Shown here piece by piece: positions 1 through 12,709 of a stretch of 64,000 bases of DNA. Both the position numbers and the translations under genes were made by a program. The notes under the pieces are model-generated. The model searched no databases and was not told the origin of the DNA. It saw nothing but the letters and a program-made list of their open reading frames with translations. The stretch lies in NCBI RefSeq assembly GCF_053078305.1, contig NZ_CP166879.1. One strand, 5' to 3'. Position 1 is the stretch's first letter. Each line of letters begins with the position of its first letter.

Positions 1-150
1 ACCCGTGGGGCCAATCAGTTTTACAGCGTCATGGAACGGCTGAAGATGCTCGATTCCCTGCAGGCAACACAGCTTCAGTCGGCCATTGTTAAAGCCATTT
101 ATGTCTATCATCTCCCCGTAGTTGTCCGCATCGTTCGCCAACTCCACTGA
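1..150 (+). CDS. B: phage portal protein (lambda gpB-like), upstream part; 5' partial at window edge and interrupted after codon at nt 96, then 18 foreign codons to a stop
   Basis: Frame 1 reads ...FYSVMERLKMLDSLQATQLQSAIVKA, continuous with MYAATIESELD at 11936; matches remembered lambda portal. Confidence 0.75.
   Translation, partial: TRGANQFYSVMERLKMLDSLQATQLQSAIVKAIYVYHLPVVVRIVRQLH
91..98. other. left junction core repeat AAAGCCAT (putative attL core; extended 12/13 match to nt 103)
   Basis: Identical 8-mer at 11930-11937 exactly where the portal reading frame is broken and resumed. Confidence 0.6.
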
Positions 151-227
151 AACCCTTGCTGCGGCTGGAATGTCGTTTTCCATACTTTTGATGACCGTTC
201 ATCACACTTCCAGGTTTTCGCGGTTTT

Positions 228-280
228 GTGTATTGCAATGTGTATTGCAAATTGGCGATCGGGATGGGTGTGTATTGCAA
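228..280 (+). repeat. three direct copies of GTGTATTGCAA upstream of int (putative arm-type recombinase binding sites)
   Basis: Copies at 228-238, 240-250, 270-280; two more copies at 11835-11857 near the right end. Confidence 0.55.
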
Positions 281-298
281 ATCTCTTGAGGGCTGTTA

Positions 299-1540
299 AT
301 GGCTATTGAAAACAAACTCAGTGACAAACTGTTAAAGAGTCTTGTCGGAAAACGGCAGGACAAACAAAAAACAATAGCGGATGGGCGCGGGTTGTCTGTG
401 CGTGTAAGCATGGTTGGGGGGATCAGCTTTGTTTTTTACTATCGTCTTGGTGGCAGGGAATCCCCTCCGGTATGGCTTACACTTGGGCGCTATCCTGATA
501 TGTCTCTTGCAACAGCCAGGCGCATGCGTGATCAGTGCCGTGAGTGGCTGGCTGAAAATCTGGACCCCCGCAGGCAAATAAAACTTGCCGCCGAAAAAAC
601 CATGCAACCAGTGACCGTAAGGGATGCGCTGTTTTACTGGTACGACAATCACGCCACAACAGCCAGAAAAGAGCATGAATATTTAATAAAACGATTTGAA
701 AAGCATATCTTCCCCTATATCGGTGATATGGCTATAGAACAGTGCAAATTACACACATGGCTTGCCGTCTTTGACAGGATCAAAAAAAATGCGCCTGTTA
801 TGTCTGGTGCAATTTTTCTTGATATCAAACAGGCGTTGCGTTTTTGTCGCGTCAGGCAATACATCGCGTGCGATCCCTTTGGCGATATTAACGTAAGTTA
901 TGTCGGGCGCTCATCCGGTATAAGGGATCGCGTTCTTAATATCAATGAAACAGCGGATGTATGGTCTTATGCTTACGGTAATAATTTGCTGACACTGTCA
1001 TCAATACATAACAGAAGAATAATGGTTATCTGCCTGGTGTTTGGTTGCCGTCAGCAGGAGGCGAGGTTATCCACATGGGACGAATGGGATTTAAAAAACT
1101 GGGTATGGACAGTCCCAAAAGAGCACAGCAAAAACAAGGAGGCCATAGTAAGGCCTGTTCCTGACGGCATAAAACAATGGCTCGTTAATCTTTACGCAGA
1201 AACAAAAAATCGCGGTTATGTTGTCGGTTGTGCTTTGCAAAGGGCGACAATAACAGGGGCTGCAAACAGAATATGCAGGCGTCTTGGTCATGATATTAAT
1301 GGCTTGTGGTGCATACATGATTTCAGGCGCACATTTTCCACTGCGCTTAATGATATGGGGGCGGATCCTTATATTGTCGAACTTCTTTTAGGTCATAAAG
1401 TGAAAGGGGTTGCCGGTGTTTACAATAAAAGCAGGCATATAAAGAAAAAACTTGAGGTGCTTAATATGTGGGTTAATTACCTTAATACGATAGCAGGATT
1501 TAACAACAACGTTATCGAGCTTAATAAAGAGGTGGTGTGA
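299..1540 (+). CDS. int: tyrosine-type site-specific integrase (P4-like family)
   Basis: 413 aa; N-terminal arm-binding-like region, C-terminal HDFRRT...LLGH...GVAGVY catalytic motifs; position at element end. Confidence 0.85.
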   Translation: MAIENKLSDKLLKSLVGKRQDKQKTIADGRGLSVRVSMVGGISFVFYYRLGGRESPPVWLTLGRYPDMSLATARRMRDQCREWLAENLDPRRQIKLAAEKTMQPVTVRDALFYWYDNHATTARKEHEYLIKRFEKHIFPYIGDMAIEQCKLHTWLAVFDRIKKNAPVMSGAIFLDIKQALRFCRVRQYIACDPFGDINVSYVGRSSGIRDRVLNINETADVWSYAYGNNLLTLSSIHNRRIMVICLVFGCRQQEARLSTWDEWDLKNWVWTVPKEHSKNKEAIVRPVPDGIKQWLVNLYAETKNRGYVVGCALQRATITGAANRICRRLGHDINGLWCIHDFRRTFSTALNDMGADPYIVELLLGHKVKGVAGVYNKSRHIKKKLEVLNMWVNYLNTIAGFNNNVIELNKEVV

Positions 1541-1541
1541 T

Positions 1542-1799
1542 ATGGCAATTTATTCTCTTGTTGATGAAAACGATTTGCGCACAATGAAGGACATTGATCG
1601 GTTCATTCGTGAAAAAGAGTGCATAGCACTTACCACGCTGGCAAACTCAACACGCTGGAAAATGGAGCAGGCAGGTAAATTCCCGCGACGTATCAAGATC
1701 GGTGAACGTGCGGCAGGGTATCGACTTTCAGAGGTTCAGGCATGGATCCGTGGTGAGTGGCATCCTGGATGGAAACCTGGAAAAACAAAACAGCAATAA
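1542..1799 (+). CDS. alpA: AlpA-family phage transcriptional regulator / excisionase-like HTH protein
   Basis: 85 aa, overlaps int stop, pattern typical of AlpA (CP4-57 regulatory protein) family. Confidence 0.7.
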   Translation: MAIYSLVDENDLRTMKDIDRFIREKECIALTTLANSTRWKMEQAGKFPRRIKIGERAAGYRLSEVQAWIRGEWHPGWKPGKTKQQ

Positions 1800-1853
1800 C
1801 CAGTAAATAACGCCCCTCATCAAGAGGGGTTTTTGTCTATAGGGTAAAACGCG

Positions 1854-2432
1854 ATGAATAAAAATATTGCCGTGACGGGCAAGGGGTACGCTCGTCCAGT
1901 GAAAAAATTCTGTGATATTCGTGATCTTGTCGTTCTGCGCTTTGATGGTGTGAGCGTTCGCGTGGTGTATGTGAACGGCGATCCGTGGTTTGTTGCCGTT
2001 GACGTGTGCGCTGCGCTGGAAATTGTTGATCACAAGGTTGCGTTACGCCGTCTCGATGATGATGAAAAGGGGGAGTGTTTAATACCCACCCCAGGTGGAA
2101 ATCAAACAATGCGAACGGTATGCGAGTCAGGGTTCTACAAACTAATCGCCAGAAGTCGGAAAGCTGTTACTCCTGGCACGTTCGCCCGTCGTTTCAGTAA
2201 CTGGGTATTCAGAAATGTGATACCAGGTATCAGAAAAACGGGGGCTTATGGTATCCCGTGGGGGGCATTACAGGATTTTTCCCGCCGTAAAGAGCAATAT
2301 CAAATAAGTGCCAGCGAGAAGGGGAGGGAGCTACAGGCATGTAAGCGCAAAAAACGTGAACTGGAGGAAGAAGAAAAAAGGCTGATACGTGAATATCAGC
2401 CTGAGTTTTACTTTGGTGAGCGTATTCAGTAA
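1854..2432 (+). CDS. Bro-N domain protein (phage antirepressor-like)
   Basis: 192 aa; N-terminal FDGVSVRVVYVNGDPWFVAVDVCAALEI resembles Bro-N/antirepressor domain. Confidence 0.55.
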   Translation: MNKNIAVTGKGYARPVKKFCDIRDLVVLRFDGVSVRVVYVNGDPWFVAVDVCAALEIVDHKVALRRLDDDEKGECLIPTPGGNQTMRTVCESGFYKLIARSRKAVTPGTFARRFSNWVFRNVIPGIRKTGAYGIPWGALQDFSRRKEQYQISASEKGRELQACKRKKRELEEEEKRLIREYQPEFYFGERIQ

Positions 2433-2770
2433 CCACACGCGGTGCTGATTATACGGTACATCGTGTTAACCGAGAAGCTACCCACCAGCAAGGCAAAATC
2501 TTCTGCTAAAAAATGACATATGGCCAGTCGTCCGGAAAGCATGAAATTTTACAAAAATGGAAAATGAAGATTTTTATTGTGCTGGTGGGTAAAAACAAAA
2601 AGCGCCCCGTTGCCGGAGCGCCCTTGTGAACAATTAACCTGCTGCGAAAAAATTGGATCAGTGCAGGGAAATTATATCAACTGTGTGAAGAAGCGCCACA
2701 ATTGCCAGTTTAGCTTTGCGGCGAACGCGTCAATAAAGAATATTCTTTCTTTAAATTCTGTTTGTGTATT

Positions 2771-2800
2771 TTTTCGTAGTTTTTCGTAGTTTTTCGTAAG
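2771..2800. repeat. tandem repeat TTTTTCGTAG x3
   Basis: Three perfect 10-bp units in the intergenic gap between convergent genes. Confidence 0.6.
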
Positions 2801-2895
2801 GAGAAAGAGCGGCGCGTATGCACCGCTAAGGAGTTTATTTTCATGACTTATGCAGCTTTCAATCTTAGCACCGCCGTAGCTGGTGGACAAGGCTA

Positions 2896-3123
2896 TCAGC
2901 CAGGCGGTCGGTTTTTAGTGGCTTTTAACCGCCGTGGGTATTTCTCGACAAAATCTTCAAGGGCAAATTTTTCTGGTGGCACTAAGCGCGGCGCTGGTGG
3001 TGGTATTTTTGTTCTGGTTAGTTCTTCCTCAAGTCTGGCGCAGGCTTCTAACTGCCTTTGCCGGATGATTTCATCATCTTGCGTTTGCGTGTCTTGTATT
3101 GGTGATAGTGTGTTGTTGGTCAT
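2896..3123 (-). CDS. hypothetical protein
   Basis: 75-aa ORF co-directional with RHH gene; preferred over overlapping low-complexity + strand ORF. Confidence 0.35.
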   Translation of the reverse strand: MTNNTLSPIQDTQTQDDEIIRQRQLEACARLEEELTRTKIPPPAPRLVPPEKFALEDFVEKYPRRLKATKNRPPG

Positions 3124-3180
3124 GATACTGCCCTGTAAAGCAATGCGCCGGAGTACCTCACGCCACGGCGCTGATAGTGA

Positions 3181-3486
3181 TTATTCTGATTCTTGGGTCT
3201 TGCGACGCTGGAGTTCTTCGCGTGCAACGGTGACAAGTTGCCCGATTTCTTCCGCTGCTTTGATGCCGATTTGTTCGACCTTAGCCAGAGCATCCAGTGA
3301 AGACACAAGGGGATTTTCTCCGCTGCCTTCTGCCTGGCGGCGGGCGATTTCACCGCGCATGGCGGTTACTATGAATCCGGCGTTGCTTTCACCGTCCAGT
3401 TTTACGGATTCCATGCCTTCAATAACATCATGCGGGATCCGAGCTGTCAGTGATTGTGATTTTGCGTTTTTTGAACCTGTAGCCAT
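3181..3486 (-). CDS. ribbon-helix-helix (CopG/Arc-like) DNA-binding protein, putative element repressor
   Basis: SLTARIPHDVIEGMESV beta-strand/helix pattern; ATG at 3486 with GAGAGGA RBS; divergent from rightward operon. Confidence 0.5.
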   Translation of the reverse strand: MATGSKNAKSQSLTARIPHDVIEGMESVKLDGESNAGFIVTAMRGEIARRQAEGSGENPLVSSLDALAKVEQIGIKAAEEIGQLVTVAREELQRRKTQESE

Positions 3487-3700
3487 CTGTAATCCTCTCA
3501 ATGAAAGTGTAAGACAATATACACATAAAAAGTCTTACATAAAAGCATTGACATGTAAGCCACCTATAAATAAAGTTACTTACACCTTGTTAATGCAAGG
3601 TGCAGAAACGACGAAACCCGGCAGTGCGCTAACACTAACCGGGCTTCTAACCACCAACGATAGAAAGCGTATCGAGGTAGCTATGAGAAATCATACCACA
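3487..3700. promoter_or_regulatory. divergent promoter/operator region with repeated TGTAAGACA / GTCTTACAT / ACATGTAAG motifs
   Basis: AT-rich intergenic region between leftward RHH gene and rightward operon, repeated half-sites. Confidence 0.45.
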
Positions 3701-4045
3701 CACCCGCAAGGGCGGGACTCGCACAACCTGAATAAATACATCTGGCGTTTTCTGGCCCGAAAAAACCAGTTGATCGCCAGTGTCGAAAATAGCTATGATT
3801 CCCGCGCACCTCATAAAACGGGTGCCGGGATTGGCGTCCTGGGCAAAACTGAAGCGCATAACACGCGCCCCGCGTGTTTTTTTGTGCCGCATAGTCACAC
3901 CTTATCAATGGTGGGCTGTACGGGGGCGGAGCAATCCGCGCCGGTTTCTTCAGTGTCCGGTTACGCCAACCCTGTACAGTCCGCCACCAGCGAAATTGGC
4001 GTTTCCGGTGGCGGTTATCTTAACCACACTGAGGAGGCTGCCAAC

Positions 4046-4237
4046 ATGGCTACTATCCCTACCCTTGTACATTCTCAAACCGCCTTTCTCTGGCGCTTTA
4101 TCATCTTTGGCGCGTCAGACCATCAAATCATCCACGTCACCGCCTGGACGGAACGCGAAGCGCGTAGCCGTTGCCCGTCCGGTTGTGTTGCTGTATTCGC
4201 CGCCCGTATTCGTCAGGAGGTGTGCCATGTGCAATAA
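4046..4237 (+). CDS. Icd-like small protein (P4 cell-division-inhibitor family), tentative
   Basis: 63 aa, GAGGAGG RBS at 4031-4037; resembles remembered Icd-like proteins of P4-type elements. Confidence 0.4.
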   Translation: MATIPTLVHSQTAFLWRFIIFGASDHQIIHVTAWTEREARSRCPSGCVAVFAARIRQEVCHVQ

Positions 4238-4484
4238 AACCACACCGGACGCAGCCGCCGCGCTCACTACACTGATGCACGCGCTGATTGATATTTCTGT
4301 TATTGCTGACAGGGCGCATAAGCACGCCACCAGTGAAACAGAATATGCCGGGGCTTTCGTTCCTCATTCGCTGGCGGTTATGCAACTTAGTGCTGATATG
4401 GCGCTGAATGAGGCCAAAGCTATCCTGATTTCTGATTGTGAAAATGGGGGGGGGTTATGCGTGATGATCGTTTTAATGCCCTGA
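4227..4484 (+). CDS. hypothetical protein
   Basis: ATG overlapping previous stop, CAGGAGG RBS; operon context. Confidence 0.45.
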   Translation: MCNKTTPDAAAALTTLMHALIDISVIADRAHKHATSETEYAGAFVPHSLAVMQLSADMALNEAKAILISDCENGGGLCVMIVLMP

Positions 4485-4678
4485 AACAGGAGTTTGATGG
4501 TGCGCCTGATGATGCAGGTGATGCGCTTTCGTCAATATCCGAACTGATAAGAGTGGCCTTTTTCTTACTTGGCACGAAAGAATATAAATCAACTGGAATA
4601 GACGTACTGAATATTACTGCTGATTATGCGGAATATATGGCAGAAGTGGATTTAAGAAAGATAACGGACAGGGGGTAA
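4457..4678 (+). CDS. hypothetical protein
   Basis: 73 aa, G-rich RBS upstream, overlaps previous gene end. Confidence 0.45.
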   Translation: MRDDRFNALKQEFDGAPDDAGDALSSISELIRVAFFLLGTKEYKSTGIDVLNITADYAEYMAEVDLRKITDRG

Positions 4679-4679
4679 T

Positions 4680-4913
4680 ATGCGTGATATTTACCACGAA
4701 ACAATAGACCGCGCATTTAGTGCCCTTGCTTACGCTGAAGGTATGTACGAAATATTGCAAATGTGTCTGGAAACATTTGGCGATAATGAGCGTGATGTAA
4801 AGAAGGCGCGGATTATTAAATCACTGATAACTCTCCTTGAACCTGTAATAACAGAGTTGCAGGAAATAGACTTATTGCACGACAGATATAACGAACAGCA
4901 CACCGGAGAATAA
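4680..4913 (+). CDS. hypothetical protein
   Basis: 77 aa, AGGGGG RBS, tightly packed operon. Confidence 0.45.
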   Translation: MRDIYHETIDRAFSALAYAEGMYEILQMCLETFGDNERDVKKARIIKSLITLLEPVITELQEIDLLHDRYNEQHTGE

Positions 4914-4918
4914 AAATA

Positions 4919-5218
4919 ATGAAACTTAAATATCCTGGCTTAACTGCCAGTGGCAACACTCACCCTAAATTTACGCGCGGTGATATTTACCGCGACCAGT
5001 ACGGCGGCACGGTAATGATTAAGGGCGTGGCGGGACGGTGCGTAACTTACCGCCGTGAAGGCTACGAATATGATTGCGTGATGCCTGTTTATCAGTTCCG
5101 GCGTGATTTTTCTCTGGTACAGACCGCGCCGCATAACGTGCCCACCAGCAACGCCAGGGCACGGGCAAACATCCAGAAGCTGAAAACCATGATTAACGGA
5201 TTCAGGGGTAAAAAATGA
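4919..5218 (+). CDS. hypothetical protein
   Basis: 99 aa, GGAG RBS, stop overlaps next start. Confidence 0.45.
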   Translation: MKLKYPGLTASGNTHPKFTRGDIYRDQYGGTVMIKGVAGRCVTYRREGYEYDCVMPVYQFRRDFSLVQTAPHNVPTSNARARANIQKLKTMINGFRGKK

Positions 5219-6624
5219 AACTGGCACCGAACGTAAAACGATTACCGAAAGATAAATACACCGAAGCGGTTATTTTTGCGGGTATTGATGCTCACTCATT
5301 CGCAGAGCATTACATCATTGCACAGGCCAAAAAAGCAGGCGATCCAGTCCCTCCCGTTTATCTGGGGCGTTATCAGTTAAGCGAACTGGATAACCTCCAG
5401 ATTGTTGATGATGGGCGATACAGGGCGACGGTGATACGCGCCGGAAATATTGAAGAGCCGCAGCTGTTAACCATCGCCACGAAACTGGCGAGCGCCGGAG
5501 TCCAGGAGGCGCGGCTACTTTCTGAAAATTTCGAATTGCTGGAGGAATGGAGCGACCAGCTTCCACGGCTTAGGGAGGCATGGGAACGCGGGGAAAGCCT
5601 GGTCATGAAAAAAATTCCCCAGCGAAAAACCACGCTACCGATGAGCGTTGGATCTACCGGATACGACACACAGCTTGATTACGTGGTAAAGGGGATTATT
5701 CCGGCATCGTCGCTTTGCAGCATATACGGGGCGAGCGGTTCCTATAAATCATTCCTTGCCGGATCGTGGGCGTGTCACGTTTCCACGGGCCGCCAGTGGG
5801 GAGGCCGCAGGGTGGCGCATGGCGCTGTTCTCTATGTGGTTGGTGAAGGCGGTATCGGCGTTCCGCGTCGTGTAAAAGCCTGGGAGGTTGTGCACGGTGA
5901 GCAGGTGAAAAATCTGTATCTGGTAAACCGTCCCATCTTTCCGGCTGTCCCGCTTGATGTTGATGAACTGGTTATTGCTGCCAGTCAGGTGGAGAGGGAA
6001 ACGGGTAAACCTGTTCGCATGATTATTCTGGACACGCTGGCGCGTTGCTTTGGCGGCAATGATGAAAATGACTCCCGCGACATGGGGGCATTTATCCGTG
6101 GTTGTGACGAGCTTAAACGGCGCACAGGGGCTACGGTGCTGGTGGTTCACCATTCCGGCAAGGATGAAACAAAGGGGGCGCGTGGTTCCAGTGCATTTCG
6201 TGCATCACTGGACGCTGAATACCGGATACGCAGGGAGGACGCAGGAAGCGAAGCGCTGGTTATCTCATGCACCAAAATGAAGGACGCGGAGGAACTCAAA
6301 GAGGCTGCCTATGATTTGCGGGTGGTGGAGCTTTTTACCGACGCTGACGGGGAGTTAATTACGTCGCTGGTGGTGGTGGATAAGCCGCGCCCTCCCGTTG
6401 AACTGGAGCGCATCGAGGAGGCAGGCAACAAGACGGAAAACCATACCGCGCTATGGGGGTGCATCCGTTCACGCACACAGAACGGCGACAAGTGCACGAT
6501 CCCGCTGTTACGTGACGATATGAAAAAGCTGGGGTATGACACAAAACACCTTAAACGATGGTTAGCCAAACTGGAAAAAGACGACGTGATCTACATTGAC
6601 GGTGATGATGTAGGACCACTGTAA
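5215..6624 (+). CDS. replication initiation protein, RecA-like ATPase (AAA_25/RepA-type) with C-terminal DNA-binding domain
   Basis: 469 aa; Walker A-like GASGSYKS, Walker B MIILD, LVVHHSGKD motif; iterons immediately downstream. Confidence 0.7.
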   Translation: MKLAPNVKRLPKDKYTEAVIFAGIDAHSFAEHYIIAQAKKAGDPVPPVYLGRYQLSELDNLQIVDDGRYRATVIRAGNIEEPQLLTIATKLASAGVQEARLLSENFELLEEWSDQLPRLREAWERGESLVMKKIPQRKTTLPMSVGSTGYDTQLDYVVKGIIPASSLCSIYGASGSYKSFLAGSWACHVSTGRQWGGRRVAHGAVLYVVGEGGIGVPRRVKAWEVVHGEQVKNLYLVNRPIFPAVPLDVDELVIAASQVERETGKPVRMIILDTLARCFGGNDENDSRDMGAFIRGCDELKRRTGATVLVVHHSGKDETKGARGSSAFRASLDAEYRIRREDAGSEALVISCTKMKDAEELKEAAYDLRVVELFTDADGELITSLVVVDKPRPPVELERIEEAGNKTENHTALWGCIRSRTQNGDKCTIPLLRDDMKKLGYDTKHLKRWLAKLEKDDVIYIDGDDVGPL

Positions 6625-6830
6625 AAAGTGGGCATTAAAAGTGGGAAAGGTGGGCGATTTAACGTAATTTTAACAAAATCACCCACTTTCCCACGTGTAT
6701 ATATCCCAAAAAGTGGGCACTAAAAAAATACCTATGAAACAAGATGATATAAATCCCAAACTTCCCACGTTGGACGAAGTGGGAAAACGTAAAAAGTGGG
6801 CGAAAAAAGTGGGTAGAGGTGGGCGAATGA
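6625..6830. repeat. iteron array, putative replication origin of the satellite
   Basis: About ten copies of AAGTGGG(C/A) / GGTGGGCGA in both orientations directly downstream of the rep gene. Confidence 0.7.
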
Positions 6831-7078
6831 CTCAAAAACACAGAGACAGAACAGAGCCAAAATATAAAGCGTTAGACATGACAGAGCACGCTTTAAAGGT
6901 GGCAATCAGGGTAATAGACCGCCACACGCGGGAAGGATACGCGAAGGAACATCCCGACCTGATAAGCGCATTCATGACCACAGCGGCGGCAAACTTTGCC
7001 ACGCTGACAGAACGGGAGATAGCCGAAGCGGAACAGGTAACAACCATCAACGTTAAAACCGGAGAGGTGGAATCATGA
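6827..7078 (+). CDS. hypothetical protein
   Basis: 83 aa from ATG at 6827 (upstream part of track ORF lies in the iterons). Confidence 0.45.
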   Translation: MTQKHRDRTEPKYKALDMTEHALKVAIRVIDRHTREGYAKEHPDLISAFMTTAAANFATLTEREIAEAEQVTTINVKTGEVES

Positions 7079-7485
7079 CAGCACAGATAGCCGCTTACGG
7101 GCGGCTGGTGGACGACCCGCAGGTAAAACAAACCAGCAAGGGCACACCGATGACGCTGGCGCGTATGGCGGTATCTCTGCCATGCAGCCAGGCACAGGAC
7201 GGGCAGGCTACGTTATGGCTATCAGTGATGGCATTTGGTAAGCAGGCCGACTTCCTGGCTAAACATCAAAAAGGCGATGTTGCCAGCGTATCCGGCACGA
7301 TGCAGGTAAGCCAGTGGACCAGACAGAACGGGGAAACGCGGCAGGGTTATCAGGTTATTGCAGACAGTGTAATCAGTGCCCGTGCTGCCCGTCCTGGCGG
7401 GAGCAGACGTACAACCACAGGCACACAGGGTAATCAGCCACCAGCGGGAGGCGATGACCCTTACGGTGACGGTATTCCGTTCTGA
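7075..7485 (+). CDS. ssb: single-stranded DNA-binding protein
   Basis: OB-fold pattern and acidic C-terminal tail DDPYGDGIPF typical of SSB. Confidence 0.75.
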   Translation: MTAQIAAYGRLVDDPQVKQTSKGTPMTLARMAVSLPCSQAQDGQATLWLSVMAFGKQADFLAKHQKGDVASVSGTMQVSQWTRQNGETRQGYQVIADSVISARAARPGGSRRTTTGTQGNQPPAGGDDPYGDGIPF

Positions 7486-7495
7486 GGGGGTGACG

Positions 7496-7768
7496 ATGGT
7501 ACATGACCGCATAGCGGAGGAACTCGAGGCAAAAGGCTTTTACCGGAGGGCGGCGGCGCGATGGGGTGAAGTTATGCAGCTGGTGGAGACAGACAAGGAA
7601 CGGCATCAGGTTACGATGCGACGGCTGGAATGTTCCAGGAAGGCACAGAGGCCACCGGAGCCGCCGGATAACTTCGGAGACCTGAAAAAAGCAGTAGATC
7701 GCACTTATGCCGAAATGGGTATGGATGGTGTAAGCGATGAAATATGGCGTAATTACCCAGACAGCTAA
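7496..7768 (+). CDS. PerC-family transcriptional regulator
   Basis: 90 aa; IAEELEAKGFYRRAAARW motif resembles PerC family. Confidence 0.5.
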   Translation: MVHDRIAEELEAKGFYRRAAARWGEVMQLVETDKERHQVTMRRLECSRKAQRPPEPPDNFGDLKKAVDRTYAEMGMDGVSDEIWRNYPDS

Positions 7769-7774
7769 TCAACA

Positions 7775-7796
7775 GCCGGAGAAATCCGGCTTTTTT
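7775..7796 (+). terminator. rho-independent terminator (GCCGGAGAAATCCGGC + T-run)
   Basis: Perfect hairpin then TTTTTT; identical hairpin recurs at 10049-10071. Confidence 0.65.
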
Positions 7797-8007
7797 GTAC
7801 CCAAAAAAAGCCCGATAAGTACAGGAGGCATCTTATCGGGCTTTTGCATATGAGGTTTTTTTGGTGCACTGACACACATGATCGGGGTAATCATTTCATA
7901 ATTTGCAACACAACTCAACATCATTGCACAAAATGCAATCCTGATTATAATCAGAGCTGGATGAACATCCAGTTCTGATTTTTTAAGTCAAAGAGGAATT
8001 TCTTACT

Positions 8008-8214
8008 ATGGCTGAAGAGAAAAAAGGCGGTGTTTCGGTGTACATAAGCCCCGAAATCGTGGAGGTGCTCAAGCAGCGCCACAAAAAAAACTATGAGGCT
8101 GGCGTAGCGGCTGGACTGGATCCGCTGATGACGCCGGAGCCGTCGATAGGTTCACTTGTGCGCTCTTATTTACTTGCGGCGCTTGGGATGCATAAAAATT
8201 ATGGTGGTGAATAA
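8008..8214 (+). CDS. hypothetical protein
   Basis: 68 aa, AAGAGG RBS, first gene of capsid operon. Confidence 0.45.
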   Translation: MAEEKKGGVSVYISPEIVEVLKQRHKKNYEAGVAAGLDPLMTPEPSIGSLVRSYLLAALGMHKNYGGE

Positions 8215-9269
8215 TGACAGTAAAAGCAATGGCACTTACAACTAACCAGCTTTTCGCGTACCTGAATCGCGGGGATATTGCAGAATTTAAATTCAGTCCG
8301 CTGTTTACCACGCTGTTTTTCCCGAACGTGGCGACCTTCAACACCCAGAACATCATGCTGGACACCCTGGACATTGAAGAGGTTACGATGTCAGCGTTCT
8401 GTTCGCCTATGGTGGGTAGTCAGGTCCAGCGCGATAAAGGGTACGAAACCAGCACGATTAAACCAGGCTACATGAAACCCAAACACGAAATCGATCCAAC
8501 AAAAACCATCATGCGCATGGCTGGAGAAGATCCGGCACAGCTTAACGACCCTACCTACCGCCGTATGCGCCTGATTACTGGCAACATGCGCCGCCAGATA
8601 AACGCCATTAAAGCGCGCGTGGAATGGCTGGCGGTGAATGCGATAACGACCGGAAAAAACATCATTGAGGGCGAAGGCATAGAACGCTATGAAATCGACT
8701 GGAAAATACCGGAAAACTGCATCATAGAGCAGGCCAAGGGTAAAAAATGGTCCGAGCATGATAAAGATATTTACGATCCAATCTATGACATCGAACTATA
8801 CGCAGATCAGGCAGGTTGCCCCGCCAACGTCATGATTATGGGCGCTGAGGTATGGCGCACGTTACGCAGCTTTAAAAAATTCCGCGAACTGTACGATCTT
8901 TCCCGTGGTTCAGAATCCGCCGCAGAACTGGCCTGTAAAAACCTGGGTGAAGTAGTGAGCTTTAAAGGCTATCTGGGCGATATTGCCCTTATCGTCTATT
9001 CCGGCAAATACACTGACAGCGACGGTACCGAAAAATATTTCCTTGAGCCTGATTTGCTGGTCCTGGGTAACACCAACAATAAAGGGCTGGTGGCCTATGG
9101 TGCGATTATGGATCAGGAAGCGGTAAGAACGGGCGCAACGCAAAACATGTTCTACCCGAAAAACTGGATTGAAGACGGCGATCCGGCGATTGAGTACGTT
9201 CAGACGCACAGCGCACCGCAGCCGGTACCGGCAGATATTCGCAAATTTGTTACCGTCAAAATTGCTTAA
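8214..9269 (+). CDS. major capsid protein, lambda gpE-like paralog encoded by the satellite
   Basis: 351 aa; clear similarity to helper E at 14646-15674 (PGYVKPKHE, EDPAQLNDP, VVSFKGY, VLGNT motifs). Confidence 0.85.
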   Translation: MTVKAMALTTNQLFAYLNRGDIAEFKFSPLFTTLFFPNVATFNTQNIMLDTLDIEEVTMSAFCSPMVGSQVQRDKGYETSTIKPGYMKPKHEIDPTKTIMRMAGEDPAQLNDPTYRRMRLITGNMRRQINAIKARVEWLAVNAITTGKNIIEGEGIERYEIDWKIPENCIIEQAKGKKWSEHDKDIYDPIYDIELYADQAGCPANVMIMGAEVWRTLRSFKKFRELYDLSRGSESAAELACKNLGEVVSFKGYLGDIALIVYSGKYTDSDGTEKYFLEPDLLVLGNTNNKGLVAYGAIMDQEAVRTGATQNMFYPKNWIEDGDPAIEYVQTHSAPQPVPADIRKFVTVKIA

Positions 9270-9280
9270 CGGGGGATTCT

Positions 9281-9616
9281 ATGGACACTCCATACATTGA
9301 GTTATTTGCAGGCAGTCAGCAGGTATCCACGACGCTGGTACATTTTGCCGCTGATGCTGGCGTTATTCAGGAATTTACCCCGCTGATGCTGGCGGACAAT
9401 GGCGAGTTTAAGCCGTGGGATGGTCAGGAATCTGGCAAGGCTGTTTATCTGACCTCGTACCCCGTGGACACGTCAAAGCAGAAATCAGCACAGTGTTACA
9501 AGACGGGGATATTTAATATCGCCGCCGTAAACTGGCCTGAGAGCGCCGACACTGACGCGAAAAAATGCGCCGCCTTTGCGGGTTCTGGCGTATCCGTTCA
9601 GCCGCTGGCGCGATAA
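9281..9616 (+). CDS. head decoration protein, lambda gpD-like paralog
   Basis: 111 aa; TPLMLA...WDGQ...YKSG/TGIF...WPES...AFAG pattern shared with helper D at 14241-14588. Confidence 0.75.
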   Translation: MDTPYIELFAGSQQVSTTLVHFAADAGVIQEFTPLMLADNGEFKPWDGQESGKAVYLTSYPVDTSKQKSAQCYKTGIFNIAAVNWPESADTDAKKCAAFAGSGVSVQPLAR

Positions 9617-9628
9617 GCAGGGGAAACG

Positions 9629-10042
9629 ATGGCAACGAATGAAAGCATCATGGCGCTACCGCTGGCGAGTAAATTTAAAGCAGAAGCGCGGGCAATGGCT
9701 GACAGAGGTTTATCAACCTACGAGGCCGTATATCAACTCAACAAACTGGAAGAGCAGGACAAGCCGCGCGCTGATGCGATTATGGCGCTTCATGAACATA
9801 ACGACTATCAGCCGCTGTTACGTGCAATGGCAAACGTGCCATGTATTAGCGTCGATAATGCTCGTGAAATCCTGAACATGACCATAGAGCAGGAGCGCCC
9901 AAAGGTTGCGCCGGAGCTTACCGCAGCCTTTGAAAACTTTATGGACATGCACAGCCCGAAAGCCGTATCACCCGGCATGGCATACGACGGCAGAAACCAG
10001 GGCGATGAAGGCGACGTCGATCGCATACTGAAAACCATCTGA
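9629..10042 (+). CDS. scaffold protein, Nu3-like (scaffold domain only, no protease domain)
   Basis: 137 aa; C-terminus AAFENFMDMHSPKAV...DEGDVD parallels helper C/Nu3 C-terminus ALFEHFMANHSPAAV...ADGDAD. Confidence 0.65.
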   Translation: MATNESIMALPLASKFKAEARAMADRGLSTYEAVYQLNKLEEQDKPRADAIMALHEHNDYQPLLRAMANVPCISVDNAREILNMTIEQERPKVAPELTAAFENFMDMHSPKAVSPGMAYDGRNQGDEGDVDRILKTI

Positions 10043-10048
10043 CATAAG

Positions 10049-10071
10049 GCCGGAGAAATCCGGCTTTTTTT
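10049..10071 (+). terminator. rho-independent terminator after capsid operon
   Basis: GCCGGAGAAATCCGGC hairpin followed by TTTTTTT. Confidence 0.65.
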
Positions 10072-10130
10072 ACGGGTCCTTTCCGGCATATGGACCCGTT
10101 ACGGGGCGGCGACCTCGCGGTTTTTCGCTA
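10072..10130 (+). other. cos site 1 (cosN GGGCGGCGACCT at 10104-10115 with cosQ-like and cosB-like flanks), rightward orientation
   Basis: Exact lambda 12-nt cohesive-end sequence and lambda-like flanks ACGGGTCCTTTCCGG...CGCGGTTTTTCGCTATTTATGA. Confidence 0.8.
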
Positions 10131-10248
10131 TTTATGAGCTTTTTTCGGGTGCTGGTGGTGGTTTTGTTGTTCGCTCTATCTCTATGAATAAAAAGGGAAA
10201 GATAAAACCAATACACCAACCTGAAACATTACTTAAGTGGGGATATTG

Positions 10249-10791
10249 ATGAAATCGCACCTGATGAACAAAAAAAACATGGCGCAAAGCTGCCGTGTAA
10301 GTGCGACAGCGTTCGACAAGTGGGGAGTGACTCCCGTTGAACGTAAAGGACGCGAGGCTTTTTACGATGTTGCCAGCGTGATAGACAATCGGGTAAGCAA
10401 TGCAATTAACCAGGTTACAAACGACAAAGGCGAGATTGATGATGATGAACTCTTACGAGTCAGGATCAGATTACTGACCGCCCAGGCTGAGGCGCAGGAA
10501 CTTAAAAACGAGCGCGATCGCGGTGACGTAATTGATACTGAGTTTTGCCTGTACGCGCTTTCAAAGCTGGCGAGTCAGATTTCTTCAATCATGGACAGTT
10601 TGCCGCTTACCATGCAAAGGCGCTTCCCGCAGATTACTCCCGCTATGCTGGATGGGCTTAAAAGGGAAGTGGTTAAAGCCTGTAATGCCAGTGCCACAGT
10701 TGCCGACAACCTCCCGAAGATACTGGCTGATTACCTGATGGAAACTACCGGAGACGTACCGGAGAAGTTGCTACAGAAGAAAGGCGAGTAA
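10249..10791 (+). CDS. terminase small subunit, lambda Nu1-like
   Basis: LTAQAEAQELKNERDRGDVIDTEFCLYALSKLASQISSIMDSLPLTMQRRFP parallels remembered lambda Nu1; start uncertain (10237/10249/10264). Confidence 0.75.
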   Translation: MKSHLMNKKNMAQSCRVSATAFDKWGVTPVERKGREAFYDVASVIDNRVSNAINQVTNDKGEIDDDELLRVRIRLLTAQAEAQELKNERDRGDVIDTEFCLYALSKLASQISSIMDSLPLTMQRRFPQITPAMLDGLKREVVKACNASATVADNLPKILADYLMETTGDVPEKLLQKKGE

Positions 10792-10962
10792 CAGACGCGC
10801 AATTATTGAACAAAAGTAAGGCCCGACATGAAATCACCCAAAAATGCCTTTTTCATGCGTTTGTATGTCTGACCTTTTACGGTTTCGATATTATAAAAAA
10901 CAAATAGTTACGCTCGAGAGGTACCGACACGCATTTTTCAGGAAAATTTTCATAAACAGATA

Positions 10963-11015
10963 AAAACCGCGAGGTCGCCGCCCCGTAACGGGCCATAATT
11001 CCAGGAAGGACCCGA
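10963..11015 (-). other. cos site 2 (cosN reverse complement at 10972-10983), inverted relative to cos site 1
   Basis: AGGTCGCCGCCC plus lambda-like flanks on the minus strand. Confidence 0.75.
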
Positions 11016-11047
11016 CGACACCAGGCTATCAGAACGATGAGGGCACA

Positions 11048-11329
11048 ATGACAGAAGCCGAACTACTGGGATTAATCCGCTACGTTACCGGAATCAGCCA
11101 GCAGCATGACGAACAGGCCACGCAGCCGGACAGCGTGACCGCTGAAAATTATGCGCGTGTTGTTGCTGAGGTGATGCGCCGTGATGGTATCCAGCTTAAT
11201 GATGCAGATATGCGCGACATACGGATCCGCGTTCTTGAAATGCTGGCCTACCGTCGCCGCGTGCAGACGTACAGGGAAAAAGCAAAAATAACGTACCAGT
11301 GGAAGAAGCCGGAGCGATTACGGCGGTAA
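11048..11329 (+). CDS. hypothetical protein
   Basis: 93-aa ORF, last gene before the right junction. Confidence 0.4.
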   Translation: MTEAELLGLIRYVTGISQQHDEQATQPDSVTAENYARVVAEVMRRDGIQLNDADMRDIRIRVLEMLAYRRRVQTYREKAKITYQWKKPERLRR

Positions 11330-11834
11330 CTTGCTGATATTCCCGATAACGCAAAATTGCGCTCTGTCCTAACCCGTTGATATTTTCGGGAACAGCCAAC
11401 GGCTGAGGCCGGAACAACGATTATCTTTCAGATAGTCAGAGCTACGAAATTTTCGTAGTTTAATTACTCGCCAGTTTATCGTTAACTCGTTGATATTTTC
11501 GGTAACCTCAATTTGAGGAGATCGGAAACATAACCCTTCACATTCTGAATGGTTATAATGACCACTCAGACCATCAAGGCAACCATAACGAACATCGTTA
11601 CGGTTGGAGCTTTTACCCCACTGGGGGGAAGGTGCACATCTGGATCATCATTACCGTGATCAAGGGTATGTAAAACCCACCAGCCTGATTAACTGTTAAC
11701 CGGAAAAAAGCCAGGTAGCCAATCTCGATATGGGGATCCCCATATCGACATTAACGCCCCCTAGAACTGCGCATATCTGCATATAAAAACATCCACCAGC
11801 TTTATGACGGATGCCGCTCATCTGATAAATAATC

Positions 11835-11857
11835 GTGTATTGCAATGTGTATTGCGA
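11835..11857 (+). repeat. two direct copies of GTGTATTGCAA/GTGTATTGCGA near right end (arm-type sites)
   Basis: Same motif as the triplet at 228-280. Confidence 0.55.
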
Positions 11858-11929
11858 CTCCTTTAAACGATAGGTTTGAGCATTCGTAATGTACTGTTTT
11901 TAAATTTTATTTTTTCCTGTCTTTTCATA

Positions 11930-11937
11930 AAAGCCAT
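11930..11937. other. right junction core repeat AAAGCCAT (putative attR core)
   Basis: Identical to 91-98; portal frame resumes here. Confidence 0.6.
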
Positions 11938-12709
11938 GTATGCAGCGACGATTGAAAGTGAACTTGATACCGAAAAGGCCTTTGAATATATCGCCGGTGC
12001 GCCGCAGGGGCAGAAGGATAATCCGCTTATTAATATTCTGGATAAGTTCTCCACCTGGTATGACACGAATATCGTGACGCTGGGCGGTGTCAAAATTCCG
12101 CACCTTTTCCCCGGTGATGATCTGAAACTTCAGACCGCGCAGGATTCAGACAATGGATTTTCGGCGCTTGAACAGGCGCTGCTGCGGTATATCGCCGCCG
12201 GTCTTGGCGTTTCCTACGAACAGTTGTCCCGTGATTACTCGAAGGTCAGTTATTCAAGTGCCCGCGCCTCCGCCAATGAGTCGTGGCGCTATTTTATGGG
12301 ACGACGAAAATTTATTGCAGCCCGGCTGGCCACGCAGATGTTTTCCTGCTGGCTGGAAGAGGCACTTCTTCGGGGGATTATCCGTCCGCCACGGGCACGT
12401 TTTGATTTTTATCAGGCGCGTTCAGCCTGGTCGCGGGCAGAGTGGATTGGCGCAGGAAGAATGGCCATTGACGGGCTCAAGGAGGTCCAGGAATCAGTGA
12501 TGCGCATTGAGGCCGGACTGAGCACGTATGAGAAAGAGCTGGCGCTGATGGGTGAGGATTATCAGGACATTTTCCGCCAGCAGGTCAGGGAATCCGCAGA
12601 GCGGGAAAAAGCCGGACTCTCACGTCCGGTGTGGATAGCGCAGGCGTATCAGCAGCAGATAGCAGAGAGCCGCAGGCCGGAAGAGGAGACAACACCACGT
12701 GAGACGTAA
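11930..12709 (+). CDS. B: phage portal protein (lambda gpB-like), downstream part resuming after the insertion
   Basis: KAMYAATIESELD...YIAAGLGVSYEQLSR...MAIDGLKEVQE resembles remembered lambda portal C-terminal half. Confidence 0.8.
   Translation, partial: KAMYAATIESELDTEKAFEYIAGAPQGQKDNPLINILDKFSTWYDTNIVTLGGVKIPHLFPGDDLKLQTAQDSDNGFSALEQALLRYIAAGLGVSYEQLSRDYSKVSYSSARASANESWRYFMGRRKFIAARLATQMFSCWLEEALLRGIIRPPRARFDFYQARSAWSRAEWIGAGRMAIDGLKEVQESVMRIEAGLSTYEKELALMGEDYQDIFRQQVRESAEREKAGLSRPVWIAQAYQQQIAESRRPEEETTPRET

What the first reader, a model, noticed from the sequence alone, without database searches (positions are those of the whole stretch)
2771..2800. TTTTTCGTAG x3 tandem repeat and related CGTAG palindrome elsewhere in the satellite
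Three perfect 10-bp units lie between convergent genes; a near-perfect palindrome CTACGAAATTTTCGTAG occurs at about 11441-11461 and a 20-bp direct repeat CGTTGATATTTTCGG(G/T)AAC at about 11376 and 11489 in the long non-coding stretch before the right junction. These may be binding sites for an element regulator or replication/packaging accessory sites.
Basis: seen in the sequence. Interest (0 to 1): 0.35.

Follow-up and report, generated by a model that had tools for sequence, protein, structure and literature searches.

The report
Orphaned regulator-binding repeat in a phage satellite
The three 10-base repeats are real and are a reshaped copy of a helically phased repeat array that related phage satellites carry at their integration sites and promoters. 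It is most likely a binding array for the satellite's small AlpA/excisionase-type protein that arrived here by recombination, so it is fairly ordinary, and it is not part of the replication origin or the packaging site.

Summary
The repeat exists at 2770-2799 as TTTTTCGTAG, TTTTTCGTAG, TTTTTCGTAA (29/30, not perfect).

**Setting.** It lies in a helper-embedded PICI satellite, 8 bp from a minus-strand terminator hairpin.

**Relatives.** Every relative has, at the same place, 2-3 units of TTGTTCGnnn, starting 30 bp after the stop codon of a short alpA gene. Here only the last ~15 bp of that alpA survive, so the segment was imported by recombination. In those relatives, including the experimentally studied EcCICFT073, the same 10-bp-phased motif also forms arrays in both att arms and between int and alpA. 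Two of them also have one upstream of the capsid genes.

**Reading.** This is the architecture of winged-helix excisionase/regulator arrays (lambda Xis, 186 Apl, P2 Cox, P4 Vis). Binding was not tested.

**Orphan status.** In this element the motif has no partner arrays and the resident AlpA is a different allele, so this copy is probably an orphan remodelled by slippage or conversion.

**Excluded.** The origin (AAAGTGGG iterons, 6621-6830) and cos (10068-10148) are elsewhere.

**Other motifs.** The palindrome and the 20-bp direct repeats are real and conserved, but they occur independently of the array. The direct repeats match the IHF consensus. The palindrome is an invariant island also found inside phage anti-repressor genes.

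The parts
2770..2799 (+). Tandem array of three 10-bp units (TTTTTCGTAG, TTTTTCGTAG, TTTTTCGTAA). It is the positional homologue of the TTGTTCGnnn x2-3 array of related PICIs.
   Evidence: Sequence; TRF; alignments with L001, L002, L012-L015 and L258.
2721..2736 (+). Relic of the last codons and stop of a short (64-aa type) alpA gene (GCGAACGCGTCAATAA). It marks the recombination joint that brought the array into this element.
   Evidence: In L002 and L012-L015 the same bases are the 3' end of an intact alpA (annotated in L002). In the window, L001 and L258 the homology to that gene stops here.
2735..2748 (.). 14-bp perfect palindrome AAAGAATATTCTTT between the alpA relic and the array. Its GAATATTC core is conserved in all relatives. 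Function unknown.
   Evidence: Sequence; alignment.
2808..2827 (-). Terminator-like hairpin of the minus-strand operon (YlcI/YnfO-like gene 3181-3501 and 75-aa gene 2896-3123), followed by CTTTCTCCTT. The U-rich tail runs to the edge of the array (its last two bases are in unit 3).
   Evidence: Terminator scan. The minus-strand RNA forms 8 uninterrupted pairs including a G-U (z = -2.7), while the plus strand has a C-A mismatch (z = 0.0). Invariant in all relatives.
122..140 (+). Degenerate two-unit, 10-bp-phased pair (TTGTCCG / TCGTTCG) about 20 bp inside the left junction. It is the only other sequence in this element resembling the array motif.
   Evidence: Array scan; sequence. It is homologous in position to TGTTCGTGGG TGTTCGTCAT in L004.
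11442..11458 (.). Perfect palindrome CTACGAAA-T-TTTCGTAG. It is a conserved module in E. coli satellites that is independent of the array. Its right arm plus flank (TTTTCGTAGTTT) is identical to 12 bases of the array.
11375..11393 (+). Copy 1 of the direct repeat CGTTGATATTTTCGGGAAC. Its reverse complement matches the IHF consensus (TATCAACGGGTTA at 11370-11382, preceded by an A-tract).
   Evidence: The same motif recurs 2-3 times in the right end of EcCICFT073.
11488..11506 (+). Copy 2 of the direct repeat CGTTGATATTTTCGGTAAC. Its reverse complement matches the IHF consensus (TATCAACGAGTTA at 11483-11495). This is the copy conserved in most relatives.

Best explanation
The 30-bp repeat is a locally homogenised copy of a helically phased direct-repeat array whose ancestral unit is TTGTTCGnnn.

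**Native setting.** In the EcCICFT073-like lineage of E. coli phage-inducible chromosomal islands this array sits just after the stop codon of a short alpA gene. The same motif forms arrays elsewhere in those elements, each with one unit per helical turn:
- in both att arms, next to the integrase-specific doubled motif;
- between int and alpA (6-7 units);
- upstream of the capsid operon in L001 and L015.

**Inferred mechanism.** Monomers of the small winged-helix AlpA protein bind head-to-tail along such arrays, cooperatively, and bend the DNA. AlpA is a homologue of P4 Vis and is both excisionase-like and the master activator of these satellites. At the att arms this would direct excision. 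At promoter-proximal arrays it would regulate transcription.

**This element.** It is a helper-embedded satellite with a different integrase and a different AlpA allele. The array arrived by recombination together with the last ~15 bp of the foreign alpA. It has no partner arrays here, so it is most likely an orphan site that has since been reshaped by slippage or short-patch conversion. That reshaping produced the G-to-T change in all units and the identical spacers. It may keep only weak or no function.

**Shown versus inferred.**
- Shown: homology, position, phasing, motif enrichment, the recombination joint, and the location of the origin and cos elsewhere.
- Inferred: which protein binds, and whether this copy is bound at all.
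For: **Same place, same phasing in relatives.**
- L001 has TTGTTCGTAG TTGTTCGCGG TTGTTCGTTA.
- L258 has TTGTTCGGAG TTGTTCGCGG TTGTTCGTTA.
- L012 has TTGTTTGTAG TTGTTCGCGG TTGTTCGTGA.
- L014 and L015 are like L012 but their first unit ends in GTAC.
- L002 and L013 have two units only.
- In L002 and L012-L015 the array starts 30 bp after an intact 64-aa alpA. The window keeps only GCGAACGCGTCAATAA of it.

**Same motif elsewhere in those elements.**
- attR arm of L004: TTGTTCGTGG TTGTTCGATA TTGTTCGTGA, 5 bp from the doubled motif.
- attL arm of L004.
- attR arm of L015, next to a different doubled motif.
- Between int and alpA in L001, L176, L177, L205, L213 and EcCICFT073, as 6-7 units.
- Upstream of the capsid genes in L001 and L015.

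**Enrichment against Markov shuffles.** L004 has 4 arrays versus 0.21 expected. L015 has three arrays of at least 3 units versus 0.0 expected.

**Not origin iterons.** Each replicase type has its own iteron next to its gene: AAAGTGGG (window), AAAAGTGGGG (L001), TAACCCGCA (L002) and CTGTTCACC (L007). L001 and L002 nevertheless share TTGTTCG arrays.

**Literature.**
- Recombination directionality factors bind direct repeats one helical turn apart, head-to-tail, and several also regulate promoters (PMC7498355).
- AlpA/HTH_17 proteins are treated as excisionases in these satellites (PMC10111431).

**Proteins.**
- The element encodes an AlpA, PF05930, E = 5e-14.
- The resident AlpA differs from the array-associated alleles in the predicted recognition helix and wing: ANSTRW/GERAAGY versus CRTTRY or SRTCRY/GGRSVGW.

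**Remodelling.** The array segment 2766-2807 is 31/42 identical to L001, while the flanks are 43/45 and 86/88 identical.
Against: - No binding data exist for any of these arrays.
- AlpA cannot be separated from the integrase arm-binding domain with this sample. All TTGTTCG-bearing elements have related integrases (69-99% identical) as well as related AlpAs.
- The position of this particular array is not an obvious place for a regulator. It lies downstream of alpA, just outside a convergent terminator, and no sigma-70-like promoter is predicted next to it.
- In the window the units are TTTTTCG, a variant seen in no other satellite in the collections searched. The element's own att arms lack the motif.
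- Identical spacers (TAG, TAG, TAA) are what neutral unit duplication gives, not what selection on a binding core needs.
Confidence: 0.5

Rival explanations
1. Neutral minisatellite. The repeat has no function in any element and persists because replication slippage keeps regenerating 10-bp units in a T-rich spacer between convergent transcription units.
For: - Copy number varies (2 or 3) and unit sequence varies among relatives.
- The window's units have identical spacers, the signature of recent duplication.
- Substitutions are concentrated in the array: 11 of 42 positions versus 4 of 133 in the flanks.
- Many unrelated phages carry simple TTTTTCGnnn tandem repeats.
Against: - The TTGTTCG core and the exact 10-bp phase are kept in relatives whose spacers differ.
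- The same motif and phase recur at 3-4 other, non-homologous places in the same elements, far above chance. Slippage at one locus cannot explain that.
Confidence: 0.22
2. The arrays are arm-type sites of the P4-family integrase (N-terminal arm-binding domain) rather than AlpA sites. The copy after alpA would be an extra integrase site used for autoregulation or intasome looping.
For: - Arrays flank the core on both att arms and abut the start of int.
- All array-bearing elements have related integrases.
- Lambda P'1-P'3 are likewise tandem 10-11-bp sites (established knowledge).
Against: - A second, integrase-type-specific doubled motif already occupies the positions 81 bp upstream and 132 bp downstream of the attP centre, and was proposed as the arm site (PMC10111431).
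- L015 has a different doubled motif (TGTGTGGTCAGT) and a 71%-identical integrase, yet keeps TTGTTCG arrays and a 98%-identical AlpA.
- Arrays upstream of capsid genes and far from att have no role for an integrase.
Confidence: 0.15
3. One reading: one element-encoded regulator recognises TTTCGTAG both as direct repeats (2770-2799) and as an inverted repeat (11442-11458), linking the two ends of the satellite.
For: - The array and the palindrome's right arm share 12 identical bases, TTTTCGTAGTTT. Only 1.6% of Markov shuffles reach this.
- The window's array differs from its relatives in exactly the direction that increases this match: 9 shared bases in L001, 12 here.
Against: - The test is post hoc.
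- The palindrome module occurs in 568 E. coli genomes, and the array segment in only 6.
- No other element has both.
- In relatives the array's conserved core is TTGTTCG, and the GTAG part varies (GTAC, GGAG, GCGG).
Confidence: 0.08
4. Structural DNA or RNA role. The phased T5-6 tracts make intrinsically bent DNA that helps the neighbouring minus-strand terminator or the small-RNA promoter about 100 bp away. Alternatively, the U-rich repeat in the plus-strand RNA modulates translation of the downstream Ash-family ORF.
For: - T-tracts are in phase with the helix.
- The array begins 8 bp from the terminator stem.
- AAGGAG-N9-ATG of a 464-aa ORF lies 43 bp downstream.
Against: - Relatives have TTGTT, not T-tracts, so curvature is not conserved.
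- The plus-strand RNA of the region folds no better than shuffles (z = 0.0).
- The small-RNA module occurs in 453 genomes, almost all without the array.
Confidence: 0.04
5. Replication-origin iterons or cos/pac accessory sites.
For: Short phased direct repeats are typical of origins. The IHF-like sites near the palindrome resemble accessory sites of origins or of cosB.
Against: - The origin is at 6621-6830, with replicase-specific AAAGTGGG iterons.
- cosN, GGGCGGCGACCT, is at 10104-10115, upstream of the Nu1-like gene, with an inverted second copy at 10896-10989.
- TTGTTCG arrays are shared by elements with unrelated replicase catalytic modules.
Confidence: 0.01

Closest known systems
Binding arrays of recombination directionality factors: lambda Xis X1-X1.5-X2, 186 Apl operators, P2 Cox boxes
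   Same: - Three or more direct repeats, head-to-tail, one per helical turn.
- Copies at the att arm and also at regulatory regions.
- Loosely conserved units with a short conserved core (PMC7498355).
   Different: - Binding is untested here.
- This copy lies downstream of a gene next to a terminator, not at att or between promoters.
- In this element it has no partner arrays and the cognate protein allele is absent.
P4 Vis / PICI AlpA (Pfam PF05930)
   Same: - The element and its relatives encode AlpA.
- Vis is needed for P4 excision and represses the int promoter (statements in PMC7286903 and PMC6092414).
- AlpA activates its own promoter in EcCICFT073, and that element carries the arrays in its int-alpA region.
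   Different: - No AlpA binding site has been defined in the papers I could read.
- The resident AlpA (85 aa) differs from the donor-lineage AlpAs in the predicted DNA-reading parts.
- The large Pseudomonas AlpA antiterminator binds a single GGGACG element and is a different protein type (PMC9371919).
Doubled attP motif tgTGTATTGCantgTGTATTGCa of helper-embedded PICIs (PMC10111431)
   Same: It is present in this element at 227-250 and 11838-11860, at the published distances from the core. It is also a short direct repeat proposed to bind integrase arms or AlpA.
   Different: - It has a 12-bp period, is specific to the integrase type, and lies only in the att arms.
- The TTGTTCG/TTTTTCG array is a separate motif with a 10-bp period. 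It sits next to the doubled motif in non-embedded relatives but is missing from this element's arms.
Replication-origin iterons of P4-like satellites and PICIs
   Same: Short repeats, partly 10-bp phased. L007 has CTGTTCACC iterons after its primase gene. From my own memory, unverified here, these resemble the P4 type I iteron TGTTCACC.
   Different: Origin iterons here sit directly after the replicase gene and change with the replicase type. The array motif does not.
Lambda cosB (R sites plus IHF site I1)
   Same: The element has a Nu1-like small terminase and a lambda-like cos site. The 20-bp direct repeats match the IHF consensus.
   Different: cos lies 1.2 kb away from the direct repeats and 7 kb from the array. 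Neither is adjacent to cosN.

Membership tests
RDF/AlpA-type (winged-helix excisionase-regulator) binding array | Two or more direct repeats in head-to-tail orientation | tested here: met
   Three units on one strand, 2770-2799.
RDF/AlpA-type (winged-helix excisionase-regulator) binding array | Spacing of about one helical turn (10-11 bp), kept in relatives | tested here: met
   Exact 10-bp period in the window and in L001, L002, L012-L015 and L258.
RDF/AlpA-type (winged-helix excisionase-regulator) binding array | Copies of the same motif in the att arm(s) of the same element | tested here: not met
   - In the window's own arms there is only a degenerate pair, TTGTCCG/TCGTTCG, at 122-140, and nothing in the right arm.
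- The feature is met in the donor lineage: L004, L015, L205 and EcCICFT073.
RDF/AlpA-type (winged-helix excisionase-regulator) binding array | The element encodes a small winged-helix RDF-type protein | tested here: met
   AlpA at 1542-1799, PF05930, E = 5e-14. It is a different allele from those of the array-bearing relatives.
RDF/AlpA-type (winged-helix excisionase-regulator) binding array | Cooperative protein binding and DNA bending at the array | not testable with these tools
   Needs gel-shift, footprinting or ChIP.
Integrase arm-type sites | Located in the P and P' arms at fixed distances from the crossover site | tested here: not met
   The array is about 2.7 kb from the left junction (91-103) and 9.1 kb from the right junction (11930-11942). 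The fixed-distance sites are the doubled TGTGTATTGCA motif.
Replication-origin iterons | Clustered next to the initiator gene and co-varying with the initiator type | tested here: not met
   The iterons are AAAGTGGG at 6621-6830. The array motif is shared by elements with RepA-type and DUF927-type replicases.
cos/pac accessory sites | Adjacent to cosN or the terminase recognition region | tested here: not met
   cosN is at 10104-10115, with an inverted copy within 10896-10989.
Intrinsic terminator | G+C-rich hairpin followed directly by a U-tract on the transcribed strand | tested here: not met
   The hairpin 2808-2827 with tail CTTTCTCCTT (minus strand) qualifies. The repeat itself lies beyond the tail and reads CTACGAAAAA on that strand.
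IHF binding site (for the 20-bp direct repeats) | Match to WATCAANNNNTTR with an A/T-rich tract upstream | tested here: met
   TATCAACGGGTTA (11370-11382, minus strand) and TATCAACGAGTTA (11483-11495, minus strand), both preceded by CCGAAAA. These are the only two matches in the satellite; shuffles give 0.67. Binding not tested.
Known RNA families (Rfam 15) | Covariance-model match at the array, the palindrome or the direct repeats | tested here: not met
   In 1-13000 the only matches above their gathering scores are C4 (3904-3991) and isrK (3806-3882). Six weaker matches lie elsewhere, and none lies at the array, the palindrome or the direct repeats.

The most novel reading that the evidence does not exclude
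The palindrome, not the tandem repeat, may be the interesting object.

**Observations.**
- ACTACGAAATTTTCGTAGT is a 19-23-bp perfect palindrome. It starts a conserved non-coding module in satellites of 568 E. coli genomes.
- The identical 17-20 bases sit inside phage anti-repressor genes (phrog_1726), with no flanking homology to the satellites.
- There it is an invariant island at a module junction, and it alternates with a second palindrome at the same codons (CTACACAAAAAGTGTAG).

**Possible meaning.** It could be a site for a trans-acting phage or host factor that satellites copy in order to sense their helper. It could instead be a hairpin-type recombination joint that drives module exchange.

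**Link to the array.** In this element the remodelled tandem array would then offer two to three direct copies of its half-site (TTTCGTAGTTT).
Probability: 0.1. Interest if true: 0.6.

Novelty: new member of a known kind. Interest (0 to 1): 0.3.

Why it matters
No AlpA binding site is defined in the PICI papers I could read (PMC6092414, PMC10111431, PMC11773190). AlpA is nevertheless the switch that couples these E. coli satellites to their helper phage.

If the TTGTKYS arrays are the AlpA boxes, they give a testable map of where AlpA acts. In the lineage that includes EcCICFT073 those places are the att arms, the int-alpA spacer, the region after alpA and, in L001 and L015, the late promoter region. 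They would also show how regulatory sites are carried between satellite lineages as small recombination patches.

For this particular window the array is probably an orphan, so its direct importance is small.

Tried and rejected
- **Origin iterons.** Rejected. Each replicase type has its own iterons beside its gene.
- **cos or cosB sites.** Rejected.
- **Palindrome as a relic of an anti-repressor gene.** The window reads ..RNNDY..YEIFVV* in one frame. Rejected, because nucleotide homology to the gene is limited to about 20 bases.
- **Resident AlpA reading ATTGCA-like sequences at the late promoter as well as the doubled att motif.** Dropped. EcCICFT073 has the same late-promoter sequence but a different doubled motif.
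- **Codon-position test** of whether the plus-strand 464-aa ORF or the minus-strand 75-aa gene is the real gene. Too few substitutions to decide.
- **Collection scans that gave little.**
  - A 19-mer in genome-contig hit only chance matches in G+C-rich genomes.
  - A 25-mer in metagenome contigs gave one relative.
  - TTTTTCGnnn x3 in viral contigs gave 86 loci. Apart from L005 and L006, which come from a single genome (UViG 2617271340) and match the window's array region exactly, they are unrelated phage repeats.
- **Literature searches** for TGTTCACC and TTGTTCG returned only primer sequences.
- **Promoter scans** found no sigma-70-like promoter next to the array or the palindrome.
- **Pseudomonas AlpA antitermination model.** Considered because the array precedes a hairpin. 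It is a different, larger protein with a single-site element, and the hairpin is a minus-strand terminator.

Full report
**What is there**

The repeat is real but not perfect. Positions 2770-2799 read TTTTTCGTAG TTTTTCGTAG TTTTTCGTAA, a 29/30 match. TRF reports period 10, 3.3 copies and score 59. A de novo scan for three 10/11-bp-phased units finds only this array in the satellite and none in the remaining 52 kb of the window. Markov shuffles never produce a 3-unit array.

The palindrome CTACGAAA-T-TTTCGTAG is at 11442-11458.

**Context**

Window 91-11942 is a helper-embedded PICI satellite inserted in a lambda-like portal gene. The junctions are AAAGCCATTTATG (91-103) and AAAGCCATGTATG (11930-11942). 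The published doubled motif TGTGTATTGCA lies at 227-250 and 11838-11860. This configuration is described in PMC10111431.

| Coordinates | Strand | Feature |
|---|---|---|
| 299-1540 | + | int |
| 1542-1799 | + | alpA (PF05930) |
| 1854-2432 | + | Bro-N anti-repressor |
| 2896-3123 | - | 75-aa gene |
| 3181-3501 | - | YlcI/YnfO-like gene |
| 3806-3882 | + | isrK RNA |
| 3904-3991 | + | C4 RNA |
| 5215-6624 | + | RepA-type replicase |
| 7075-7485 | + | SSB |
| 7376-7768 | + | PerC |
| 8214-9269 | + | lambda E-type capsid |
| 9281-9616 | + | D-type decoration protein |
| 10237-10791 | + | Nu1-like small terminase |

The array lies in the 463-bp spacer between the convergent Bro-N gene and the 75-aa gene. 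It is 8 bp from a hairpin at 2808-2827. That hairpin is a minus-strand terminator. The minus-strand RNA forms eight uninterrupted pairs including a G-U (z = -2.7). The plus strand has a C-A mismatch there and folds no better than shuffles.

**Relatives**

Only six complete E. coli genomes hold a homologue of 2700-2900. Viral and metagenome collections add a few more. All have a 10-bp-phased array at the same place, but with the unit TTGTTCGnnn.

| Element | Units |
|---|---|
| L001 | TTGTTCGTAG TTGTTCGCGG TTGTTCGTTA |
| L258 | TTGTTCGGAG TTGTTCGCGG TTGTTCGTTA |
| L012 | TTGTTTGTAG TTGTTCGCGG TTGTTCGTGA |
| L014, L015 | TTGTTTGTAC TTGTTCGCGG TTGTTCGTGA |
| L002, L013 | TTGTTTGTAG TTGTTCGTGA (two units only) |

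In L002 and L012-L015 the array begins 30 bp after the stop codon of an intact 64-aa alpA. In the window, L001 and L258 only the last ~15 bp of that gene remain (2721-2736). They are joined to an unrelated conserved module. The array therefore came in as part of a recombination patch.

The patch is 96-100% identical to relatives in its flanks (43/45 and 86/88 against L001). The array segment 2766-2807 is only 31/42 identical. All three units changed G to T and the spacers became identical. That pattern fits unit duplication or short-patch conversion. I could not exclude adaptive change.

**The motif is a family of arrays**

In the elements that carry the array natively, the same motif in the same 10-bp phase occurs at several other places:
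- Both att arms, directly next to the integrase-type doubled motif. In L004 attR this is TTGTTCGTGG TTGTTCGATA TTGTTCGTGA. It is also present in L004 attL, L015 attR, L205 attL and both arms of EcCICFT073.
- Between int and alpA, as a 6-7-unit array on the opposite strand, in L001, L176, L177, L205, L213 and EcCICFT073.
- Upstream of the capsid genes in L001 and L015.

The enrichment is strong. L004 has 4 arrays versus 0.21 expected. L015 has three arrays of at least 3 units versus 0.0 expected.

**What the arrays are not**

Each replicase type has its own iterons immediately after its gene.

| Element | Iteron |
|---|---|
| window (6621-6830) | AAAGTGGG |
| L001 | AAAAGTGGGG |
| L002 | TAACCCGCA |
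| L007 | CTGTTCACC |

L001 and L002 have unrelated catalytic modules yet share TTGTTCG arrays. The arrays are therefore not origin iterons.

The lambda-type cos is at 10068-10148, with cosN GGGCGGCGACCT at 10104-10115. An inverted second copy is at 10896-10989. The arrays are therefore not packaging sites.

**Most likely mechanism**

Direct repeats one helical turn apart, bound head-to-tail and cooperatively, at att and also at promoters, are the hallmark of recombination directionality factors. Examples are lambda Xis, 186 Apl, P2 Cox and P4 Vis (PMC7498355).

AlpA is the P4 Vis homologue of these satellites. In EcCICFT073 it activates its own promoter, and its overexpression triggers excision and replication (PMC6092414). 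EcCICFT073 carries the arrays in exactly that int-alpA region and in its att arms.

I therefore infer that the arrays are AlpA binding arrays. The integrase arm domain is the main alternative. A weak argument for AlpA comes from L015. It keeps the arrays and a 98%-identical AlpA, while its integrase is 71% identical and its doubled motif differs.

**Status of the copy in this window**

Three observations bear on whether this copy is functional:
- The resident AlpA (85 aa) differs from the array-associated alleles in the predicted recognition helix and wing.
- The element's own att arms lack the motif, apart from a degenerate pair at 122-140.
- The close helper-embedded relative L007 has no such arrays at all.

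The array here is therefore best read as an orphan site, remodelled and possibly inert.

**The palindrome and the direct repeats are separate things**

*Palindrome.*
- The palindrome module is found in 568 E. coli genomes. Homology usually starts exactly at the palindrome's left edge.
- In L017-L019 it extends to 23 bp, AAACTACGAAATTTTCGTAGTTT, within flanks that are only about 79% identical overall.
- No other array-bearing element has it. Some of them have a different palindrome, AAACTACCCGTAGTTT, instead.
- The 12-base identity with the array (TTTTCGTAGTTT) is unusual, about p = 0.016 post hoc. L001 shares 9 bases and L012 only 6. I treat the link as probably coincidental.

*The same bases in phage genes.*
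- The same 17-20 bases occur inside phage anti-repressor genes (phrog_1726), coding Y-E-I-F-V, without any flanking homology to the satellites.
- In an unbiased, protein-based sample the 15 bases encoding Y-E-I-F-V, the core of the 17-mer, have 0 variable sites. The flanks have 13 of 45 and 14 of 45.
- An alternative palindrome, CTACACAAAAAGTGTAG, occupies the same codons in other members. It also has 0 of 15 variable sites, against 17 of 45 and 39 of 45 in its flanks. This suggests a constraint at the nucleic-acid level at a module junction.

*Direct repeats.*
- Both copies match the IHF consensus on the minus strand. They are the only two matches in the satellite.
- The motif recurs two or three times in the right end of EcCICFT073.
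- The function of this conserved non-coding right-end region remains unknown. Rfam has no match there.

**Verdict**

The array is a new member of a known kind of element. In this element it is probably a relic. Interest is modest.

Noticed in passing
window 2590-2706, minus strand: - **Candidate ~75-nt small RNA.** It has an extended -10 (TGATATAAT, 2679-2671), two hairpins and a strong intrinsic terminator (2625-2598, followed by TTTTTGTTTTT).
- The module is conserved in 453 E. coli genomes and is present in EcCICFT073.
- The first stem shows a C-G to A-U compensatory change between the window and EcCICFT073.
- It has no Rfam match.
   Followed up: partly
window 91-103 and 11930-11942 (junctions); 227-250, 269-280, 11838-11860 (doubled motif): - The satellite is inserted inside the portal gene of a lambda-like prophage. 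The portal reading frame continues across the element.
- 59 complete E. coli genomes have this int-alpA-Bro module next to a split portal gene.
- This helper-embedded PICI configuration and the TGTGTATTGCA doubled motif are already published (PMC10111431).
   Followed up: yes
window 10068-10148 (+) and 10896-10989 (-): Two lambda-type cos sites in inverted orientation flank the Nu1-like small terminase gene (cosN GGGCGGCGACCT at 10104-10115). EcCICFT073 has the same inverted pair around its 144-aa gene.
   Followed up: partly
window 6621-6830; L001 9505-9720; L002 8700-9020; L007 16810-17046: - The replication origins lie directly after the replicase genes, with replicase-specific iterons (AAAGTGGG, AAAAGTGGGG, TAACCCGCA, CTGTTCACC).
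- All four replicases share a homologous N-terminal domain of about 125-140 aa (45-74% identical). It is fused to three different catalytic modules (RepA helicase, DUF927, DNA primase).
   Followed up: partly
L259-L338 (anti-repressor genes, phrog_1726), codons about 56-62; window 11442-11458: - The 17-base palindrome is an invariant island inside phage anti-repressor genes, at the junction between an N-terminal module and variable downstream modules.
- Other members carry a different palindrome at the same codons, CTACACAAAAAGTGTAG, encoding YTKSV instead of YEIFV.
   Followed up: partly
window 2843-4237, plus strand: - A 464-aa open reading frame starts at AAGGAG-N9-ATG just after the hairpin.
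- It runs antisense through the 75-aa and YlcI-like genes and through isrK and C4, and ends in an Ash-family domain (PF10554, residues 318-411).
- It may correspond to P4 eta, whose translation controls immunity termination. Whether its 5' half is translated could not be decided.
   Followed up: partly
L001 5601-5632; L340 (EcCICFT073) 4955-4975: A second 10-bp-phased array lies immediately upstream of the 62-aa alpA gene. It is CAATACGACA CAATAAGACA CAATAAGACA in L001 and GACACAATCC GACACAACCC in EcCICFT073. Its reverse complement (TTGTGTC) resembles units of the TTGTKYC arrays.
   Followed up: no
window 11549-11659 (+) and 11726-11747: - The conserved non-coding right end contains a possible 36-aa ORF (MVIMTTQTIKATITNIVTVGAFTPLGG...). 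Two of the three substitutions I looked at between relatives are synonymous in that frame.
- It also contains several hairpins and a 22-bp perfect palindrome, CGATATGGGGATCCCCATATCG.
- Its function is unknown.
   Followed up: no
L005 and L006 (IMG/VR UViG 2617271340, contigs 000010 and 000015): Two different contigs of one genome carry a stretch identical to the window across the array region. That genome therefore appears to hold two copies of this satellite segment.
   Followed up: no
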